In this document: positions 1,591-29,094 of the stretch, in pieces | Numbering within the stretch: the stretch's first letter is position 1 | Layout of the letters: each line of letters starts with the position of its first letter | Source of the DNA: a virus | Taxonomy: Duplodnaviria; Heunggongvirae; Uroviricota; Caudoviricetes | DNA length: 29,094 nucleotides | Strand: one strand, 5' to 3' | Virus record (IMG/VR): IMGVR_UViG_2778261543_000004 | Span: 1-29,094 of that record | Position numbers and translations under genes: made by a program | Notes under the pieces: generated by a model | Seen by the model: the letters and a program-made list of their open reading frames with translations, nothing else | What the model was told of the DNA's origin: nothing | Database searches by the model: none

Positions 1591-1740
1591 TTCATTCATA
1601 GTGCAGGGATTAAAATCATTCCCACTCAATTATTTACGGCATATATAACCAATTGACTGGTAACAAATTTATAAGTCAAATTTTTCACCGTACCGTTTTA
1701 TATACCGTCACCGGAAATCAGTACCATGGAAAATGCCATG

Positions 1741-2223
1741 TCACCGGGTCAGTGAATCGTACTGCTTTTCACAGACTCGTCCGGCTTCGGCGGCCCGGTC
1801 AGCGTACTCTGCCAGTTGTCGGTTTCGCTCGAGAGATTTGCTGAGCACGTCGGCAAGCAAAACTCCGGTGTCTGCGGCTGACGTCCCAGCGCCGACAGTG
1901 GCGTTATACTGCCTGAGCTGCTCACGGATGGCAACGAGCTGTTGCTGCAACCTGCCAGCACGAGCGGCAGCATCAAGAGCATCATTACGCGCCTGGTCGA
2001 TCCTCTGCTGCGCTTCACGTTCATTGGTCGCTTTCTCCTGTTCGTCATGCTGACGAGCTTTCTCATCTTCGGCTTTGCGGTCTGCCTTTGCCTGCGCATA
2101 CCCGGCGTCGTACTGTCGATCGCCGTGAGCATTCCAGGCAATCCTGCAGCCGATCACCAGAGCAGCAAGCATCATCACGATAAACAACTGTTTCCAGTAC
2201 GCTTTAACGAATGCCCGGATCAT
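1741..2223 (-). CDS. Phage i-spanin (Rz-like lysis protein)
   Basis: N-terminal transmembrane helix then long Q/R/A/E-rich coiled coil; start overlaps the endolysin stop (ATGA); last gene of the lysis cassette. Confidence 0.75.
   Translation of the reverse strand: MIRAFVKAYWKQLFIVMMLAALVIGCRIAWNAHGDRQYDAGYAQAKADRKAEDEKARQHDEQEKATNEREAQQRIDQARNDALDAAARAGRLQQQLVAIREQLRQYNATVGAGTSAADTGVLLADVLSKSLERNRQLAEYADRAAEAGRVCEKQYDSLTR
1749..1985 (-). CDS. Putative o-spanin (Rz1-like lipoprotein) embedded in the Rz frame
   Basis: Alternative frame inside Rz beginning MMLLMLPLVLAGC (lipobox LAGC), with a Pro/Ser-rich mature part; embedded layout as in lambda Rz/Rz1. Confidence 0.45.
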   Translation of the reverse strand: MMLLMLPLVLAGCSNSSLPSVSSSGSITPLSALGRQPQTPEFCLPTCSANLSSETDNWQSTLTGPPKPDESVKSSTIH

Positions 2224-3585: not shown

Positions 3586-3641
3586 AACCATATGTGGTTT
3601 AATTATGATCGGAATGCTCTTAACGAAATTACCTTACGGGT
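3586..3641 (-). promoter_or_regulatory. Late-operon upstream element, copy C (ATTACCTTACGGGT plus AACCATATGTGGTT)
   Basis: Third copy of the bipartite motif also found upstream of the tailspike and portal operons; lies between the acetyltransferase terminator and the lysis operon start. Confidence 0.45.
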
Positions 3642-3666
3642 ATTAAAAAGCCCACCTGAGTGGGCT
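3641..3666 (-). terminator. Rho-independent terminator after the acetyltransferase moron
   Basis: Hairpin AGCCCAC-ctga-GTGGGCT followed on the - strand by TTTTTAATA. Confidence 0.7.
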
Positions 3667-7972: not shown

Positions 7973-8037
7973 TATTACCTGAAAAACCATATATGGATAG
8001 ACAACCCATAAATACGAACAGATATTACCTTTCAGGT
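7973..8037 (-). promoter_or_regulatory. Late-operon upstream element, copy A (TATTACCT, CCATATATGG, TATTACCTTTCAGGT)
   Basis: 15-bp exact repeat TATTACCTTTCAGGT (8023-8037) shared with 24633-24647, plus perfect palindrome CCATATATGG (7987-7996); upstream of the tailspike start. Confidence 0.5.
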
Positions 8038-8076
8038 GATTCGCAAAACGTGCTGGATAGCAAATAAATTATTTGA

Positions 8077-8096
8077 TACTGTATATTTATACAGTT
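8077..8096 (+). promoter_or_regulatory. LexA operator (SOS box)
   Basis: TACTGTATATTTATACAGTT matches the LexA consensus TACTGTATATATATACAGTA (CTGT-N8-ACAG core); TTGATA -35-like hexamer overlaps its 5' edge; 20 bp upstream of the 8116 ATG. Confidence 0.8.
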
Positions 8097-8115
8097 ATTG
8101 CATGGAGAAGATAAG

Positions 8116-8373
8116 ATGCAGCAGTATCACTATCCACTGGAAGACGGATTTACCGAAAGGATTCACACGCCGGGAGGCGTCAGATCACTGGTGGAGGGAT
8201 CGCACTTGATGAAATTACTCCGGGAGCTCGATAAGGATGGATTTAATGTCGATGGCCCACTTGCCGAACTGACTGCACTGATTAACTACGTCACCAGCTC
8301 ACAGATGTCTATGCGGGATCTGCAAACACATCTCGACTATTGTGCCGAACAATTACGAAAACAAACCACATAA
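8116..8373 (+). CDS. SOS-regulated small hypothetical protein (moron in late region)
   Basis: 85-aa ORF from ATG 8116 with GGAG RBS 8 nt upstream, directly behind the LexA box; opposite strand to the flanking structural genes. No recognisable family; not DinI-like by eye. Confidence 0.65.
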   Translation: MQQYHYPLEDGFTERIHTPGGVRSLVEGSHLMKLLRELDKDGFNVDGPLAELTALINYVTSSQMSMRDLQTHLDYCAEQLRKQTT

Positions 8374-8379
8374 AGAAAA

Positions 8380-8408
8380 GGCCGCTAGAGCGGCCTGTGA
8401 CATGTCAC
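8380..8408. terminator. Hairpin plus GTGACATGTCAC palindrome between convergent genes
   Basis: GGCCGC-taga-GCGGCC hairpin (8380-8395) adjacent to GTGACATGTCAC (8397-8408); T-tract lies on the - strand (TTTTCTTTAT), so it best terminates the - strand small ORF. Confidence 0.65.
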
Positions 8409-24568: not shown

Positions 24569-24647
24569 ATTATTACCAATTTAACCACATATGATTTATT
24601 TATCGTAGAAGGTTGACATTTAACGCGTGAATTATTACCTTTCAGGT
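24569..24647 (-). promoter_or_regulatory. Late-operon upstream element, copy B (TTATTACCA, AACCACATATGA, TATTACCTTTCAGGT)
   Basis: Same bipartite arrangement as copy A, including the exact 15-mer at 24633-24647; on the - strand the proximal copy reads GGTAATAAT (-10-like) about 25 bp before the small ORF and portal. Confidence 0.5.
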
Positions 24648-24970
24648 AACTAAAGAGCTCATTCTGGTTACTAACCTGACTGGCTTGTCGTTAAATTAAA
24701 CAGGTGGAGTGAGCTTTTATTTTGAGCAGTACGGCGTATGGCACATGCGCCGATAGCGGTCTGGATACGTTTAAGGGGCACCATCCCTTGCTCGGGCAAA
24801 CGAACCAGGTAGCCGGAATGTGCAAGTCGAGCGGTTTTATTCCGCGCACGGGGATTCACCATCCCGGCGATTCGGTGTGACGCCTCGGAAGAGACGAGGG
24901 TACAACGATGAGAGCATTTATGGAGCCGCGACAAAGTGTGGCGCCTTAACAGGCTAAGTGCTCTCAGCGT

Positions 24971-25047
24971 TGTGGCATTAGCTCAGTCGGACAGAGCAAC
25001 CGCCTTCTAAGCGGTTGGTCGCAGGTTCGAATCCTGCATGCCACGCC
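24971..25047 (+). tRNA. tRNA-Arg (anticodon UCU, reads AGA)
   Basis: Folded by hand into a cloverleaf: acceptor GTGGCAT/ATGCCAC, D-arm GCTC-AGTCGGACA-GAGC, anticodon arm ACCGC-CTTCTAA-GCGGT, T-arm GCAGG-TTCGAAT-CCTGC, discriminator G and encoded CCA. Confidence 0.9.
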
Positions 25048-25091
25048 AGAATCACGCCTAAGGACCGTGATGCCAGAAGTTCCAGGGGCTT

Positions 25092-25246: not shown

Positions 25247-25618
25247 ATGAACGACAAGCAAATCGAAAAAGAAATCGTTGAGAAAGGCAAAACGGCACCG
25301 CGCGTTACGCCAGACCATATCGAAGGCATTATTGCTCAGGAGGCATATTTCACAGCAGAAGATGGTGCCTTTGGCAAAGCCATAAAAGCGAAACATACTG
25401 GCGGAGAGGTAAACTACCAGCCGCACGAATCACTTTCTCTGCTGACGTTCTGCGTCCTGGTGCTGCGCAACGGCTTCACCGTCACCGGAGAGAGCGCCTG
25501 TGCAAGCCCGGAAAACTTTGATGCAGAAATTGGTCGGAAGATTGCCCGGCAGAATGCTGTAAACAAAATCTGGATGCTCGAAGGTTACTTGCTGAAGCAG
25601 AAGCTAAGCGAGCAATAA
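25247..25618 (+). CDS. Small phage protein, possibly of the N4 gp49 / Sf6 gp66 family (moron)
   Basis: 123 aa, RBS AAGGTGAG; opposite strand to the packaging operon; stop followed by GTGACATGTCAC and an intrinsic terminator. Family assignment from memory of a motif (TGESACASPENFDAEIGR), unverified. Confidence 0.65.
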   Translation: MNDKQIEKEIVEKGKTAPRVTPDHIEGIIAQEAYFTAEDGAFGKAIKAKHTGGEVNYQPHESLSLLTFCVLVLRNGFTVTGESACASPENFDAEIGRKIARQNAVNKIWMLEGYLLKQKLSEQ

Positions 25619-25638
25619 CACCGTGACATGTCACAAAC

Positions 25639-25665
25639 AGCCAGCCGATGAGCTGGCTTTGTTTT
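25639..25665 (+). terminator. Rho-independent terminator after the 25247 gene
   Basis: AGCCAGC-cgatga-GCTGGCT followed by TTGTTTT; 4 nt downstream of the 12-bp palindrome at 25623-25634. Confidence 0.75.
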
Positions 25666-25708
25666 ATCCTCATCAGAGGATATCAACGACATTATCCCCA
25701 CCAGCGGA

Positions 25709-27184
25709 TTAAGCATAGGGATCGTAATCTGTGATGGCCTTGCCTTGCTGGTTCTGCTGCCCGGGAATTCGCAGACGCTTCGACACAGGGAACGCAAACG
25801 TCAGCAGTAGCGCATCGCCTTTACCAGGCGAACGCCCAAGCCGCTCCTTGATATCTTCCTTCGGTTCGATAACGATTTTACCGTCCACTCGAACTTTGTA
25901 CTCTGCCGCCGACAGATCGTCCGCTGTTTCCTGGTCATCCAGCATCCCGCCCAGCCTCAGCCATGTCTTGCATGAGTTGAACATCTCCCCACGCTTGTTG
26001 AGCATCTGCTGGTCAGTAGACGCGCCACCGAACGGAACAAGTTGCCATGTGCGCCCCCAACCGTCACCGATTGACTTCAGACCGGTACCGTAACCAAAGT
26101 CGATGAACACTGCGTCAGCCTGATACAGGTCTTCAAAGTCAGCGATACGCTTCGCCATAATCAGATCGTCGGTAGTCTTGTTGCCAGTCCACAGCACCTT
26201 ACTGTGTAGCCCCTGCCGCAGGTATATCACCGCGTCATCAACGCCTGAATATGCCGGGTCAACACCGATTATCACCGGAGCATGCGCCACCTGCGCAGCG
26301 GTTACCACCCGTTTCATTGCCTCATCAGTAAGACCGGTAGGGATAAACTGCAATTCAGATGCATCAGGGAATATGCCGCGCACACGGATTTTAACGAAGT
26401 CGCTGTCTTCCCCGTAGTCATCAACCCATTTCTGCAACTGCTGTTTGTTAGTGCCTTCCACCGTCCGGCTGTCAATCTGTGCAGTTTTCCAGCGGTGTTT
26501 ATATTTGCGGAAACATTCGCGGAAACGCCCGGTGTTACGTGTCGGATTTCCGAACGCCACCCAGATAATCTCAGTGTCTTCGTCCGTAAGCGCACCCTCA
26601 GCAACTTCCCACACCAGATCCGCAATGTTCGACGCTTCATCGAATACCACGATGATGCGTTTGCGCTCGTTGTGTAGTCCGGCGAATGCCTCAGTGTTGT
26701 GCTCAGACCAGGGGATTGCGTCAGCTCGCCACCGCTTGTCGTGTCCAGGATCATTGCTGTACATCGCGGTAGCGGTACAGGTAAACCAGTCTTTCGTGAT
26801 AGCAAGGTTCGACCACTTGATAATTTCCGGCCAGGTCTTCGTTCGTAGCTGGTTGTCGGTGTTGGCGGTCACCACGACCTTACAATCCTCGCAAGTGGAC
26901 ATGCCCCAGTTGATCAACATTGAGATGAATGCTGATTTACCAATACCGTGACCAGAAGCGCGTGCCAGCATAAGCGGCTGATAGCGCGTCTCCGGATTCT
27001 GCAGGTGATCACGTATCTCTCGGAACGCATCAGCCTGCCACTGACGTGGGCCGGTGGCATGTGCCAGTTCAGTCCCCTCTTCCCCCCACGGGAACGCATA
27101 GAGGGCATAGCCAAGCGGATCGTGAGTGAACCCTGCAATATCCTCGATCAACTGCTCTTCAGGAGATAACGCTGTATCTGTCAC
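25709..27184 (-). CDS. Terminase large subunit
   Basis: 491 aa with N-terminal ATPase features (Walker A-like SGHGIGKS, Walker B-like IIVVFDEAS) and C-terminal nuclease-like region (IIGVDPAYSG...); start overlaps the terS stop. Confidence 0.85.
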   Translation of the reverse strand: MTDTALSPEEQLIEDIAGFTHDPLGYALYAFPWGEEGTELAHATGPRQWQADAFREIRDHLQNPETRYQPLMLARASGHGIGKSAFISMLINWGMSTCEDCKVVVTANTDNQLRTKTWPEIIKWSNLAITKDWFTCTATAMYSNDPGHDKRWRADAIPWSEHNTEAFAGLHNERKRIIVVFDEASNIADLVWEVAEGALTDEDTEIIWVAFGNPTRNTGRFRECFRKYKHRWKTAQIDSRTVEGTNKQQLQKWVDDYGEDSDFVKIRVRGIFPDASELQFIPTGLTDEAMKRVVTAAQVAHAPVIIGVDPAYSGVDDAVIYLRQGLHSKVLWTGNKTTDDLIMAKRIADFEDLYQADAVFIDFGYGTGLKSIGDGWGRTWQLVPFGGASTDQQMLNKRGEMFNSCKTWLRLGGMLDDQETADDLSAAEYKVRVDGKIVIEPKEDIKERLGRSPGKGDALLLTFAFPVSKRLRIPGQQNQQGKAITDYDPYA

Positions 27185-27777
27185 TGATTACCATCCTGAC
27201 GTTCTTTGAGTCGCTTCCTGGCTGCCGCTATGCGATCAGCAATTGTCACATTCACATTAACATCCAGGCGTTCTTTGAATGCGTTGACGTCGACGTGCTT
27301 ACCAATCAGTTCGAGGTTCTTCACCTTGTCAGGCCATTTAATTTTTTTGAGGATTGTCTCTATCGAATCCTCGTTCATGTTCATGATGGTCGATGACAGA
27401 TCAAAGCCACTAAGCGTAGTGCGCCAGATTTTCGGCCACTCACTGATTGGTTTAAGGCTCCCATCGTCGTTGAGGATATCGATCACGTCCATCTGGTCGA
27501 TCTCCACCAGGCGCATGAGAACGTAATCAGCACTGACGCGCATTCGTTTGTTGCGCTCCTCCATCAACTCGGCAATCCGTTTTTGAATGCGTTCATCGCG
27601 CATCATGACACTGGCTTTAACTGCCGCTGTATTTGGGGAGAATCCTGCGTTAATCGCTGCCTGAGTCTGGTTTTCAGGCGTTTTGATGTATGACTGGCAA
27701 TAAGCCTCCTGCATTGCTGTGAGCGGCTTAAATTGCGTTGATTTGCGTTTATAGGTTTTAGGTTCAGCAGGCATCAT
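27181..27777 (-). CDS. Terminase small subunit
   Basis: About 198 aa from ATG 27777/27774 (GGTGG RBS); the first 26 codons of the listed ORF are probably not translated; directly upstream of and overlapping terL. Confidence 0.65.
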   Translation of the reverse strand: MMPAEPKTYKRKSTQFKPLTAMQEAYCQSYIKTPENQTQAAINAGFSPNTAAVKASVMMRDERIQKRIAELMEERNKRMRVSADYVLMRLVEIDQMDVIDILNDDGSLKPISEWPKIWRTTLSGFDLSSTIMNMNEDSIETILKKIKWPDKVKNLELIGKHVDVNAFKERLDVNVNVTIADRIAAARKRLKERQDGNQ

Positions 27778-27786
27778 AACCACCAT

Positions 27787-27813
27787 GGTAATAGTTACCG
27801 TTGTGGTAATAGT
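27787..27813. repeat. Tandem direct repeats GGTAATAGT (x2) just upstream of terS
   Basis: GGTAATAGTTACC at 27787 and GGTAATAGTACCA at 27805, flanked by CCATGG and CCATGC; lie between the terminator and the terS start. Confidence 0.5.
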
Positions 27814-27820
27814 ACCATGC

Positions 27821-27846
27821 AAAATAAAGCCGCCATAGTTGGCGGC
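27821..27846 (-). terminator. Rho-independent terminator upstream of the packaging operon
   Basis: GCCGCCA-acta-TGGCGGC followed on the - strand by TTTATTTTG; about 45 bp before the terS start. Confidence 0.7.
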
Positions 27847-27887
27847 AGTATTCAAAACCCGTCAAATTCATCATGCATAATCTACTC

Positions 27888-27899
27888 GTGACATGTCAC
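27888..27899. repeat. 12-bp perfect palindrome GTGACATGTCAC (third copy)
   Basis: Identical to copies at 8397-8408 and 25623-25634; overlaps the stop codon of the zinc-ribbon gene and sits ~40 bp before the terminator. Confidence 0.8.
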
Positions 27900-28243
27900 A
27901 CTATTAATTTCGTTTCATGCCAGCCTTTAGTCACCCAGCATTGCGAGTCACCATTACACGGGCATGAATTAACAGGAACTCTCTCGCCGCACTTACCGCA
28001 ACGTTTTCTACTGATCGATTTTATACGCCCGCGCACACGTGCATCATCCTGGCGGATCAGCAGCGCGATGTACTCGGCCATTTCATAGGGATCGCGACCA
28101 GGGCGCCGGGCGGCGCAGTTCCGCGCCAGCATTTCCTGCTCCTGCTTATCCAGCACCAGTTCAATTTTGCGCTCACCGGCGGCGGACTGCCGAGCGCGCT
28201 GCGCGGATTTGCGTTCTGCGGGGGATTTAGCCACGAATCGCAC
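27896..28243 (-). CDS. Cys4 zinc-ribbon small protein (possible regulator)
   Basis: C-terminal CGKCGERVPVNSCPCNGDSQCW motif (C-x2-C-x8-C-x-C); basic N-terminus. Start uncertain: GTG at 28243 (115 aa) or ATG at 28132 with strong AGGAG RBS (78 aa). Confidence 0.55.
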   Translation of the reverse strand: MRFVAKSPAERKSAQRARQSAAGERKIELVLDKQEQEMLARNCAARRPGRDPYEMAEYIALLIRQDDARVRGRIKSISRKRCGKCGERVPVNSCPCNGDSQCWVTKGWHETKLIV

Positions 28244-28349
28244 TCCACGCCAGATTGATTAATGACTCCCAGGCAATATAAACCCGGATACCAGCAGCCA
28301 GGCCGAAACCAATCACCATGGCATAAAGCAGAGCGTTGAGCTTGTTCAT
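28227..28349 (-). CDS. Possible small membrane peptide (40 aa)
   Basis: ATG overlaps the DUF551 gene stop (TAATG); hydrophobic (MNKLNALLYAMVIGFGLAAGIRVYIAW...); overlaps the GTG-start version of the zinc-ribbon ORF, so the two calls partly exclude each other. Confidence 0.3.
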   Translation of the reverse strand: MNKLNALLYAMVIGFGLAAGIRVYIAWESLINLAWSAIRG

Positions 28350-29094
28350 TACTTCACCTCCTGCGGCGGTTCTGGTAGAGGCATCCAGTGAGTTACGTCA
28401 TCCAAGATATTTCCTGATAAATACGTGAAAGCTCTATATTTTTTGTAATCAATTGGATTTACAACCCAGTTCCAATATGCGGCCACGATTTCACCTTGAC
28501 TAAATGCCAGTAACATTTTGGTGTCTTCCGGCATTCGCTCACTACAGCTTATCCAACCATCCGGAGTTACCGGATAGTTGCCAGCCAGTCTACGCAAAAC
28601 AGCCTTAACCGCCTCAATACGGTCATCATCGCAATTTTCCAGCGTATCTATGCGGTCGAGCATGATGATGGCGTTATCAATATCAGGATTGCCGGTCCAC
28701 TCATTACCGCGATTGGATTCGGCAGCCTGGTTGCCGTGTACTGTTTGATTCTCGGCTTTACCCAGTCTGTCATCGCTGCATGAATACCCTTCCAGCCAGG
28801 CCAATGCTTGTCGCATGAAATATGCAATATGTTTGCCGTGGTAATCGTCTTCATCTATGTGAAAAGCGATACTGCGAATGTATTCAATTGCATTTTCAAT
28901 AGCCTCCAACGCTATCGGCGCTGGCGGCGCAGCGAATAGATATCCGCCAAAATCAGGAAGCTCTCCAATGGCCTGTACGAACTTTTGTTTGCCTACGTCA
29001 ATTCCTAATGGGTAGTGAGCTATAATCTTTGCCACTGGCTCTGCTTCCAGCGATGCCAGTGCAATTCGTGCCAGTTCTTCCGCTTCTTCTGCTG
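28349..29094 (-). CDS. Phage protein with C-terminal DUF551-like domain (5' end outside window)
   Basis: C-terminal segment DGWISCSERMPEDTK...THWMPLPEPP matches the DUF551 pattern as I recall it; the frame stays open upstream of the GTG at 29035 to the window edge. Confidence 0.6.
   Translation of the reverse strand, partial: AEEAEELARIALASLEAEPVAKIIAHYPLGIDVGKQKFVQAIGELPDFGGYLFAAPPAPIALEAIENAIEYIRSIAFHIDEDDYHGKHIAYFMRQALAWLEGYSCSDDRLGKAENQTVHGNQAAESNRGNEWTGNPDIDNAIIMLDRIDTLENCDDDRIEAVKAVLRRLAGNYPVTPDGWISCSERMPEDTKMLLAFSQGEIVAAYWNWVVNPIDYKKYRAFTYLSGNILDDVTHWMPLPEPPQEVK

What the first reader, a model, noticed from the sequence alone, without database searches (positions are those of the whole stretch)
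27777..28243. Cys4 zinc-ribbon protein, terminator and tandem GGTAATAGT repeats upstream of the packaging operon
Immediately before terS the - strand carries, in order: a small zinc-ribbon protein, GTGACATGTCAC, a strong intrinsic terminator, and two GGTAATAGT repeats only ~10-40 bp before the terS start. The layout (regulator gene, terminator, late operon) resembles Q/tR'-type antitermination or activator-dependent late-gene control. The repeats have the same core (GGTAATA) as the late-operon motifs but in opposite orientation.
Basis: inference. Interest (0 to 1): 0.55.

Follow-up and report, generated by a model that had tools for sequence, protein, structure and literature searches.

The report
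Repressor operators guarding phage packaging genes
This is the boundary between the early genes and the DNA-packaging genes of an epsilon15/phiV10-like prophage: the "tandem repeats" are two copies of the phage's general repressor operator sitting on the terS start, while the small zinc protein is an uncharacterised DNA-binding protein that more likely goes with the GTGACATGTCAC palindrome.

Summary
The interpretation needs revising.

**The repeats.** The two GGTAATAGT repeats are the left half-sites of two abutting 19-bp inverted-repeat operators, (T/A)ATTACC-N5-GGTAAT. O1 is 27793-27811. O2 is 27775-27793 and covers the terS Shine-Dalgarno and abuts the ATG. The same operator occurs 14-18 times per Uetakevirus genome. 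It sits at the rep/cro switch and at the start of almost every transcription unit. The likely ligand is therefore the SPC32H-type Rep repressor, not the zinc-ribbon protein.

**Dissociation test.** In 40 lambdoid or other loci that carry the zinc-ribbon gene, the operator is absent. One such locus that I examined also encodes a genuine Q antiterminator.

**The zinc-ribbon protein.** It is a 112-aa ribbon-helix-helix-like protein with a Cys zinc knuckle, and has no Pfam family.

**The palindrome.** The most conserved element is GTGAC-AT-GTCAC. It overlaps the gene's stop codon in most related loci examined, recurs at two other operon ends in the window, and usually precedes an intrinsic terminator. 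Its function is unknown, and the zinc protein is its best candidate ligand.

**Verdict.** Ordinary repressor control, plus one genuinely uncharacterised protein/site module.

The parts
27896..28234 (-). Last gene of the early-right (nin-like) operon. It encodes a 112-aa ribbon-helix-helix-like protein with a C-terminal Cys zinc knuckle (epsilon15 gp49 / phiV10 gp55 family, phrog_536).
27888..27899 (.). 12-bp perfect palindrome GTGAC-AT-GTCAC ('M2') overlapping the TGA stop of the regulator gene.
   Evidence: Three exact copies in the window. Present at the gene end in 78 of 80 close IMG/VR relatives whatever follows it. Present in most distant relatives, with centre AT, CA or GC. The last codon is always NNG whatever the amino acid. 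Next to a terminator-like hairpin in 72 of 124 distinct contexts, against 24 of 400 random positions.
27852..27878 (-). 8-codon remnant (ATGCATGATGAATTTGACGGGTTTTGA) of a 70-aa ORF that sits between the palindrome and the terminator in many relatives.
   Evidence: Comparison with L025 and 20 or more other loci, where the full ORF ends ...YDEFDGL* just before the same terminator. The 70-aa protein has no Pfam family.
27820..27846 (-). Intrinsic terminator ending the early-right operon: 7-bp G+C stem, 4-nt loop, TTTATTTTG tail.
   Evidence: Conserved with an A-T to G-T change in SPN1S, Tyrion and group D loci. Replaced by unrelated terminators at the same position in lambdoid relatives. Absent where a umuD-like moron is inserted.
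27793..27811 (.). Operator O1, TATTACC-ACAAC-GGTAACT. This is an immunity-type 19-bp inverted repeat.
   Evidence: 11 of 12 match to ATTACC-N5-GGTAAT. In 114 of 114 related loci an operator scoring at least 11/12 lies within 70 nt upstream of terS, against about 1% of random windows. The spacer takes 8 different sequences among relatives; the half-site constancy in that set was imposed by the search pattern.
27775..27793 (.). Operator O2, TATTACC-ATGGT-GGTTATG. It shares one base with O1, contains the terS Shine-Dalgarno GGTGG and abuts the ATG.
   Evidence: 11 of 12 match. The tandem geometry (18 bp centre to centre) resembles the tandem pair in the rep-cro region (17 bp). An operator over the SD/ATG is also found at the DUF1064 gene start. 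O2 is degenerate in the second terS-leader type, so it is less certain than O1.
27181..27774 (-). terS (Terminase_2 family). The start is the conserved ATG at 27774.
   Evidence: PF03592 E 1e-29. Only this ATG is conserved among relatives. Longer database annotations (phiV10p01, RefSeq) run through the terminator and operators. Window against SPN1S shows 9 amino-acid changes to 1 silent change there, and the frame is closed in group C.
25623..25667 (.). Second copy of the palindrome (25623-25634), followed on the + strand by a hairpin (25639-25658) and TTGTTTTAT. This terminates the convergent + strand Sf6-gp66-like gene, just past the terL stop.
   Evidence: Same arrangement in phiV10, SPN1S and OXA245phi3.2.
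8371..8408 (-). Third copy of the palindrome (8397-8408), followed 1 nt later by a terminator (8380-8395 plus T run) at the end of the virion structural operon.
   Evidence: Same arrangement in phiV10, SPN1S, Tyrion and BUCT711.
24634..24650 (.). Same operator (GTTACC-TGAAA-GGTAAT) upstream of the portal operon. A GGTAATA half-site lies 62 bp downstream at 24571-24577.
8024..8040 (.). Same operator (ATCACC-TGAAA-GGTAAT) upstream of the tailspike gene. A GGTAATA half-site lies 50 bp downstream at 7973-7979.
3628..3644 (.). Same operator (AATACC-CGTAA-GGTAAT) upstream of the lysis cassette.

Best explanation
The segment is the junction between the early-right operon and the packaging operon of a Uetakevirus (epsilon15/phiV10/SPC32H-like) prophage that uses the Rep/Ant lysis-lysogeny switch.

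**Order on the - strand**
1. The last early gene, encoding a ribbon-helix-helix-like protein with a zinc knuckle.
2. A 12-bp palindrome, GTGAC-AT-GTCAC, on its stop codon.
3. A decayed small ORF.
4. An intrinsic terminator that ends the early operon.
5. Two abutting 19-bp operators, O1 and O2, of the phage's general operator type (T/A)ATTACC-N5-GGTAAT. O2 lies over the terS ribosome-binding site.

**Inferred mechanism**
- In the lysogen a Rep tetramer occupies O1/O2. Rep is reported to bind palindromic sites as a tetramer, and I assume one palindrome per pair of DNA-binding domains. This blocks any transcription entering terS-terL, in the manner of a stoperator-like roadblock or occlusion of a very weak promoter.
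- After LexA-controlled Ant removes Rep, terS-terL is expressed. Expression comes from read-through of the terminator out of the upstream operon, or from a weak -10-only promoter overlapping the operators.
- The zinc-ribbon protein does not act through these repeats. Its most likely target is the palindrome, a module that usually sits just upstream of intrinsic terminators and probably modulates termination or insulation at operon ends.

**Shown**: the anatomy, conservation, genome-wide distribution and co-occurrence patterns.

**Inferred**: which protein binds which site, and the direction of the effect.
For: **Operator identity and distribution**
- There are 14-18 sites scoring at least 10/12 per Uetakevirus genome, against 1-2 in shuffles.
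- They lie at the rep-cro intergenic region, downstream of rep (pairs 62 bp apart), after cro, before the nin-like genes, before int, and before terS, portal, tailspike and lysis.
- The same distribution is seen in an E. coli chromosome whose junction is 100% identical to the window.

**Link to terS**
- All 114 loci of this terS family have an operator of at least 11/12 within 70 nt upstream of terS.
- The O1 spacer takes 8 different sequences across relatives, as expected of an operator spacer.

**Rep/Ant system present**
- The window ORF 8101-8373(+) matches SPC32H Ant (5D50_E, E 2e-47) and has a LexA box at 8079-8094.
- The repressor of the closest phage matches SPC32H Rep (5D50_A, E 4e-42).
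- Rep binds palindromic sites as a tetramer and has a looping-type tetramerisation domain (PMC9638917, PMC9986798).
- Repressor overexpression abolishes late (holin and endolysin) transcripts in the relative ZX5 (PMC9782041).

**Dissociation from the zinc protein**
- There are 0 operators in 40 loci (about 232 kb) that carry the zinc-ribbon gene in another backbone, yet 28 palindromes there.

**No promoter**
- No promoter-like site lies between the terminator and terS.
Against: - Binding of Rep to this operator is not shown here. I could not read the SPC32H papers that may define the operators. A Cro-like or other protein could share or own these sites.
- The window itself does not contain rep.
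- All genomes examined have the same half-sites, so no heteroimmune covariation test was possible.
- O2 is degenerate in one terS-leader type.
- How terS is turned on is unresolved. A terminator with no visible promoter after it implies read-through or antitermination.
- A few loci keep an unchanged regulator but lack the palindrome at the gene end.
Confidence: 0.62

Rival explanations
1. The zinc-ribbon protein is a Q-like antiterminator or late activator that recognises the GGTAATA repeats here and at the late operons, and switches on terS, portal and tailspike.
For: - Gene position at the end of the early operon, directly before a terminator and the packaging genes.
- Shared GGTAATA core at three late units.
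- The portal, tailspike and lysis promoters lack a -35 and so probably need some activator.
Against: - The motif is the general operator. It is also found at rep/cro, int and early units.
- It never accompanies the gene outside Uetakeviruses.
- The gene coexists with a true Q in the lambdoid relative I examined.
- There is no similarity to any Q, Ogr or late-activator family.
Confidence: 0.08
2. The zinc-ribbon/RHH protein binds the GTGACATGTCAC palindromes and changes what RNA polymerase does at the adjacent terminators. It either loads on the polymerase to give read-through into terS-terL (a DNA-site-dependent antiterminator unrelated to Q), or acts as a roadblock that reinforces termination and insulates convergent units.
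For: - The palindrome is co-inherited with the gene in two phage backbones.
- Selection acts on the DNA rather than the last codon.
- Enrichment next to terminators is about tenfold, and the palindrome is upstream of the hairpin in the terminated direction at all three window sites and in the relatives' sites inspected.
- The RHH-like fold has MatP-matS as its top structural hit, and matS has the same GTGAC half-sites.
- There is a marginal match of residues 49-110 to the RNAP-binding TraR/YbiI zinc finger, E about 0.04.
Against: - At the terL site the module terminates a leftward moron, not a late operon. This speaks against a purely late-gene antitermination role.
- Some loci lack the site although the protein is unchanged.
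Confidence: 0.3
3. The repeats are a pac-type recognition site for the small terminase, like SPP1 pacL, which lies just upstream of a Terminase_2-family terS.
For: - TerS is Terminase_2.
- The repeats always accompany this terS family.
- Several phage records are linearised near here.
Against: - The same 19-bp site occurs 14-18 times per genome at promoters and the immunity region. A pac signal should be unique.
- Record starts are conventional (terS first) and differ between records.
Confidence: 0.04
4. The palindrome is not the target of the phage protein. It is either a host-factor site or decoy, or merely a conserved mosaic joint between modules. On the host-factor reading, it is a hybrid of the MatP site GTGAC-RNY-GTCAC and the 12-bp SlmA site GTGAGTACTCAC.
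For: - It shares outer bases with both host sites (PMC3116907; PMC3603311).
- The sequence immediately downstream of it is where relatives diverge completely.
Against: - It is one base shorter than matS, and all four central bases differ from the SlmA consensus.
- True matS is reported absent from 500 prophages.
- Three to four copies at equivalent operon ends in each genome, and the NNG-TGA constraint, argue for a sequence-specific function rather than a passive joint.
Confidence: 0.12

Closest known systems
SPC32H Rep/Ant lytic switch (Kim & Ryu 2013; Kim et al. 2016; PDB 5D4Z, 5D50)
   Same: - The window encodes an Ant homologue with a LexA box.
- Its closest relatives encode a Rep homologue.
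- Palindromic operators occur as tandem pairs or pairs 62 bp apart, which would fit a repressor that binds as a tetramer.
   Different: Whether the published work lists operators at terS and the late operons is unknown to me, because the papers were not readable here. Rep binding to O1/O2 is inferred, not shown.
Mycobacteriophage L5 gp71 'stoperators' (Brown et al. 1997; from my own knowledge)
   Same: Many repressor sites are spread through the genome, including positions with no promoter. There the bound repressor would stop elongating polymerase, so that late genes stay silent in the lysogen.
   Different: L5 stoperators are asymmetric 13-bp sites that act in one orientation. Here the sites are symmetric 19-bp inverted repeats, most overlap promoters, and the roadblock function is untested.
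Lambda Q / pR' / tR' late antitermination
   Same: A regulator gene is last in the early operon, and a terminator lies between it and the late genes.
   Different: - There is no Q-family similarity.
- There is no conserved promoter plus pause element.
- The late region is cut into several operator-bearing units.
- The family coexists with a real Q in the lambdoid relative I examined.
MatP-matS (E. coli Ter macrodomain organiser)
   Same: - The site has the same GTGAC/GTCAC half-sites.
   Different: - The site is 12 bp, not 13.
- The protein lacks the four-helix bundle and coiled coil, and has a zinc knuckle instead.
RinA/ArpU-type late activators encoded just upstream of terS in Gram-positive phages (PMC3152322)
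   Same: A small regulator gene lies immediately upstream of terS.
   Different: No sequence relationship was detected. No activator-type promoter is evident upstream of terS. The repeats belong to the repressor operator set.

Membership tests
Lambda-type Q antitermination module | Protein belongs to a Q family (PF03589, PF06530 or the Q21 type) | tested here: not met
   No Pfam hit for the protein or for 57 family members. A separate PF06530 protein is encoded 1.3 kb downstream in the lambdoid relative L121.
Lambda-type Q antitermination module | Constitutive promoter with a Q-binding element and a promoter-proximal pause between the Q gene and the terminator | tested here: not met
   Only one weak promoter-like match (GTGACA-18-CATGAT) overlaps the palindrome. 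Its -10 is not conserved in relatives, where an ORF, a LexA promoter or 23 nt of other sequence follows.
Lambda-type Q antitermination module | Intrinsic terminator between the regulator gene and the late genes | tested here: met
   Conserved in position in most relatives.
CI/Rep-type repressor operator (SPC32H Rep) | Inverted repeat identical in type to the sites in the repressor-cro intergenic region of the same phage | tested here: met
   O1 and O2 score 11/12 against ATTACC-N5-GGTAAT. The same motif lies at the rep-cro and rep-downstream regions in phiV10, SPN1S, EC.W1-9, Tyrion, BUCT711 and an E. coli prophage with an identical junction.
CI/Rep-type repressor operator (SPC32H Rep) | Cognate repressor encoded by the same element | tested here: inconclusive
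   rep lies outside the window. The Ant partner is inside it, and Rep homologues are present in the closest phage and prophage.
CI/Rep-type repressor operator (SPC32H Rep) | Direct binding of the repressor to the site | not testable with these tools
   Needs EMSA, footprinting or ChIP.
Ribbon-helix-helix (Arc/MetJ/CopG) DNA-binding proteins | N-terminal strand followed by two helices, forming a dimer | tested here: inconclusive
   [not shown]
MatP/matS | MatP domains and the 13-bp site GTGAC-RNY-GTCAC | tested here: not met
   hhalign probability 0.3% and no MatP Pfam hit. The site is 12 bp, and no 13-bp version occurs in 1.1 Mb of related loci.
DksA/TraR C4 zinc finger | CxxC-N17-19-CxxC finger after a long helix; PF01258 | tested here: not met
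   Profile match to TraR/YbiI at only E 0.04-0.05, with the fourth Cys not aligned. No PF01258 hit. Foldseek finds nothing.
pac site of SPP1-type terminases | Unique TerS-binding repeats next to terS | tested here: not met
   The site is multicopy (14-18 per genome) and promoter-associated.

The most novel reading that the evidence does not exclude
The 112-aa protein is a phage 'mini-MatP'. On this reading its ribbon-helix-helix reads the 12-bp GTGAC-AT-GTCAC palindromes, which the phage places just upstream of intrinsic terminators at operon ends. Its zinc domain, faintly TraR-like, would contact RNA polymerase. This would make a DNA-site-dependent termination/antitermination (or insulation) system unrelated to N, Q, put or Psu. 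In Uetakeviruses it would gate read-through from the early operon into terS-terL.
Probability: 0.15. Interest if true: 0.75.

Novelty: new variant of a known kind. Interest (0 to 1): 0.4.

Why it matters
**Control of late genes.** The data suggest that epsilon15/phiV10/SPC32H-like prophages do not use a lambda-style cascade for late genes. This junction is found in about 9% of complete E. coli genomes (502 of 5426). These prophages appear to place the same repressor operator at nearly every transcription unit, including directly on the ribosome-binding site of the packaging genes. That would explain tight silencing of packaging and virion genes in lysogens. It would also allow prompt derepression when the LexA-controlled antirepressor is made.

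**An uncharacterised module.** The work isolates a widespread, uncharacterised protein/site pair: an RHH-zinc protein plus a palindrome resembling the matS and SlmA sites, placed next to terminators. It is found in two phage backbones. Its function in transcription termination or DNA organisation is directly testable.

**Annotation.** Databases label the protein 'transcriptional regulator' without evidence. Several annotated terS starts run through a terminator and operators.

Tried and rejected
**Leads that gave nothing**
- Pfam, NCBIfam and PDB sequence searches with the protein gave nothing.
- Foldseek against PDB gave nothing. The afdb50 library was unavailable.
- The TraR/DksA zinc-finger lead was not confirmed by Pfam scans of 57 members or by fold search.
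- Profile comparison with E. coli MatP was negative.
- The SPC32H papers (J Virol 2013, PNAS 2016) and the epsilon15 genome paper could not be opened by DOI, PMC id or PubMed id.
- Literature searches for GTGACATGTCAC and for the operator half-sites found nothing relevant.
- Rfam finds only the tRNA.

**Ideas considered and rejected**
- A sigma-70 promoter between the terminator and terS. None was found. At best there is a -10-like AATTAT/AACTAT inside O1/O2 with no -35.
- The long terS reading frame starting before the terminator, as annotated for phiV10, SPN1S and RefSeq. Window against SPN1S shows 9 non-synonymous changes to 1 synonymous change there, and an in-frame stop in group C.
- A pac-site reading, because the motif is multicopy.
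- Covariation between palindrome variants and the protein. This is only suggestive: the GC-centred, extended palindrome goes with a divergent N-terminus and strand, but some loci lost the site with an unchanged protein.
- Testing whether the third motif, AACCATATATGGTT, travels with the regulator. This was uninformative.
Full report
**What the window is.** The window is most of an epsilon15/phiV10-like (Uetakevirus) temperate podophage, with the late genes on the - strand.
- The region 27600-28400 is 98% identical to Escherichia phage EC.W1-9. It matches phiV10, TL-2011b, SPN1S, Tyrion and related Klebsiella phages.
- A 151-bp stretch across the finding occurs in 502 of 5426 complete E. coli genomes.
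- In the full genomes of phiV10 and SPN1S, the zinc-ribbon gene is the last gene of the rightward early operon (cro-like gene, replication genes, nin-like genes). terS is the next gene.

**Observation check.**
- The ORF is 27896-28243 (-). Homologues are 112 aa and start at the GTG at 28234.
- GTGACATGTCAC is at 27888-27899, overlapping the TGA stop.
- A 7-bp G+C hairpin with a T run is at 27820-27846.
- GGTAATAGT occurs exactly twice in 29 kb, at 27787-27795 and 27805-27813.
- The conserved terS start is the ATG at 27774. The upstream ATGs are not conserved.
- Between the palindrome and the terminator lies an 8-codon remnant of a 70-aa ORF that is intact in many relatives.

**The repeats are operators.** Read on the coding strand, the leader is GCATGGTAC TATTACC ACAAC GGTAAC TATTACC ATGGT GGTTATG ATG.
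- This is two abutting 19-bp inverted repeats: O1 = TATTACC-N5-GGTAACT and O2 = TATTACC-N5-GGTTATG.
The 'late-operon motif' ACCTGAAAGGTAATA is a complete copy of the same inverted repeat, so the 'opposite orientation' has no meaning.
- A scan for ATTACC-N5-GGTAAT at 10 or more of 12 positions finds 14-18 sites in each of five Uetakevirus genomes, against 1-2 in shuffles.
- The positions are conserved:
  - a tandem pair 17 bp apart, plus more sites, between rep and the cro-like gene;
  - a pair 62 bp apart downstream of rep, flanking a consensus TTGACA-17-(A/G)ATTAT leftward promoter;
  - one site after cro;
  - a pair 62 bp apart before the DUF1064 gene, whose downstream member covers the SD and ATG;
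  - one site before int;
  - sites before terS, the portal operon, the tailspike gene and the lysis cassette.
- An E. coli chromosome whose junction is 100% identical to the window shows the same set in one prophage.

**Association with terS.** In an unbiased test, 114 of 114 loci with this terS family have an operator of 11/12 or better within 70 nt of the start. About 1% of random 70-nt windows do. Among 40 distinct leaders the 5-bp spacer of O1 takes eight sequences.

**Who binds the operator.**
- The window encodes a homologue of the SPC32H antirepressor Ant (8101-8373 +, 5D50_E, E 2e-47), preceded by a perfect LexA box at 8079-8094.
- The repressor of the closest phage is a homologue of SPC32H Rep (5D50_A, E 4e-42).
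- Rep is reported to bind palindromic sites as a tetramer and to have a looping-type tetramerisation domain (PMC9638917, PMC9986798). This fits the tandem pairs and the 62-bp pairs.
- Overexpressed repressor removes holin and endolysin transcripts in the relative ZX5 (PMC9782041).
- That Rep is the ligand is an inference from position. I could not read the primary SPC32H papers.

**The operator does not belong to the zinc-ribbon protein.**
- The gene also occurs in other phage backbones. In 40 such loci (about 232 kb) there is not one operator of 11/12 or better. The 107 Uetakevirus-type loci have 218.
- The example I examined, L121, is lambdoid. There the gene lies in the nin region after a DNA methyltransferase. 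It is followed by the palindrome, a terminator, a LexA-box moron, DUF1367, YbcO and a Q-family antiterminator (PF06530, 35 bits, cut-off 26).
- So the protein is not the Q equivalent in that phage, and the GGTAATA sites do not travel with it.

**What the protein is.**
- It has no Pfam or NCBIfam family. PHROG 536 calls it 'transcriptional regulator' without evidence.
- The family has 150 or more clusters at 50% identity, all about 110-130 aa.
- C79 and C82 are invariant and C99 is nearly so. The other ligand shifts position.
- The AF2 model (pLDDT 92) has a basic helix, an extended segment (KIELVL), two helices, a zinc knuckle and a last helix.
- A profile search of PDB sequences gives TraR and YbiI at E about 0.04 over residues 49-110. 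Neither Pfam scans nor fold search confirm this.
- I regard the protein as RHH-like with a zinc knuckle, of unknown function.

**The palindrome is the most conserved element.**
- GTGACATGTCAC lies at the gene's stop in 78 of 80 close relatives. This holds whatever follows: the terminator, the 70-aa ORF, or a LexA-controlled umuD-like moron.
- It is present in most distant relatives, sometimes with centre CA or GC and sometimes just after a TAG stop.
- The last sense codon is GTG, ATG, TCG, CCG or GCG, always ending in G. Selection is therefore on the DNA, not the amino acid.
- Uetakevirus genomes usually have two to four copies at equivalent places (EC.W1-9 has one): after the regulator, after terL, and after the structural operon. 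A degenerate copy lies after the lysis genes.
- In 72 of 124 distinct contexts a terminator-like hairpin starts within 90 nt, mostly 0-5, about 20 or about 39 nt away. The figure for random positions is 24 of 400.
- At all three window sites the palindrome is upstream of the hairpin in the direction in which the T run follows. At the terL site it terminates the convergent + strand Sf6-gp66-like gene.
- The site shares its GTGAC half-sites with matS (13 bp). It shares its length and outer four bases with the SlmA site GTGAGTACTCAC. No 13-bp version occurs in 1.1 Mb of related loci.
- The zinc-ribbon protein is the best candidate ligand by co-inheritance. The effect on termination, and its direction, is unknown.

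**How terS is expressed.**
- No promoter is recognisable after the terminator.
- The likeliest routes are partial read-through from the early operon, or a very weak -10-only promoter (AATTAT/AACTAT inside O1/O2, like the -10 that overlaps the operator at the leftward early promoter).
- Where the umuD-like moron replaces the terminator, O1 is kept directly before terS. This is consistent with a roadblock function against transcription coming from a LexA-controlled promoter.

**Verdict.** The Q-like or activator reading through the GGTAATA repeats is not supported. The repeats are repressor operators, a known kind of element used in an unusual place. The RHH-zinc protein and its terminator-associated palindrome remain a genuinely uncharacterised module.

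Noticed in passing
window 8079-8373 (+): A homologue of the SPC32H antirepressor Ant (5D50_E, E 2e-47) sits between the structural operon and the tailspike gene, convergent with the late genes. A perfect LexA box, CTGTATAAATATACAG, lies at 8079-8094 in its promoter.
   Followed up: partly
window 24583-24596, 7985-7998, 3586-3599: A third palindrome, AACCATATATGGTT (1-2 mismatches), lies 42-54 nt downstream of the operator at the portal, tailspike and lysis promoters. It sits just upstream of a poor -10, and there is no -35. In relatives it also lies in the spacer of the leftward early promoter, after cro and before the nin-like genes. It may be the site of a second regulator, possibly the real late activator or a Cro-like protein.
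   Followed up: partly
window 24972-25048 (+): A tRNA-Arg (anticodon TCT) gene lies on the opposite strand, in the about 1.4-kb gap between terL and the portal operon. Next to it is a + strand Sf6-gp66/N4-gp49-family gene at 25247-25618.
   Followed up: partly
window 27775-27855 and database records (phiV10p01, SPN1S_0001, RefSeq WP_086722705): Several database annotations start terS 70-110 nt too early, so the annotated 'protein' runs through the terminator and both operators. Window against SPN1S shows 9 amino-acid changes to 1 silent change there, and the frame is closed in the umuD-moron group. The conserved start is the ATG at 27774.
   Followed up: yes
related loci L051, L053, L073, L074, L078, L099-L120, L156 (20344-20740), L121 (3440-3714): LexA-box promoters driving small morons are inserted immediately after the palindrome or its terminator. 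The morons are a 109-aa UmuD-like protein or other short ORFs. This is seen in many Uetakevirus-type relatives and in the lambdoid relative L121. This joint seems to be a preferred landing place for SOS-controlled cargo.
   Followed up: partly
window 1733-1744: A degenerate copy of the palindrome (GTGACATGGCAT on the - strand, 2 mismatches) lies at the stop of the Rz-like gene, at the end of the lysis cassette. SPN1S has a 1-mismatch copy at the same place.
   Followed up: no
window 28227-28349 (-) and 28349-29035 (-): The two genes upstream of the regulator are a 40-aa predicted membrane peptide (phrog_5525) and a DUF551 protein. This segment is mosaic among relatives, with DUF2591/NinX or ASCH-domain genes in its place.
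   Followed up: no
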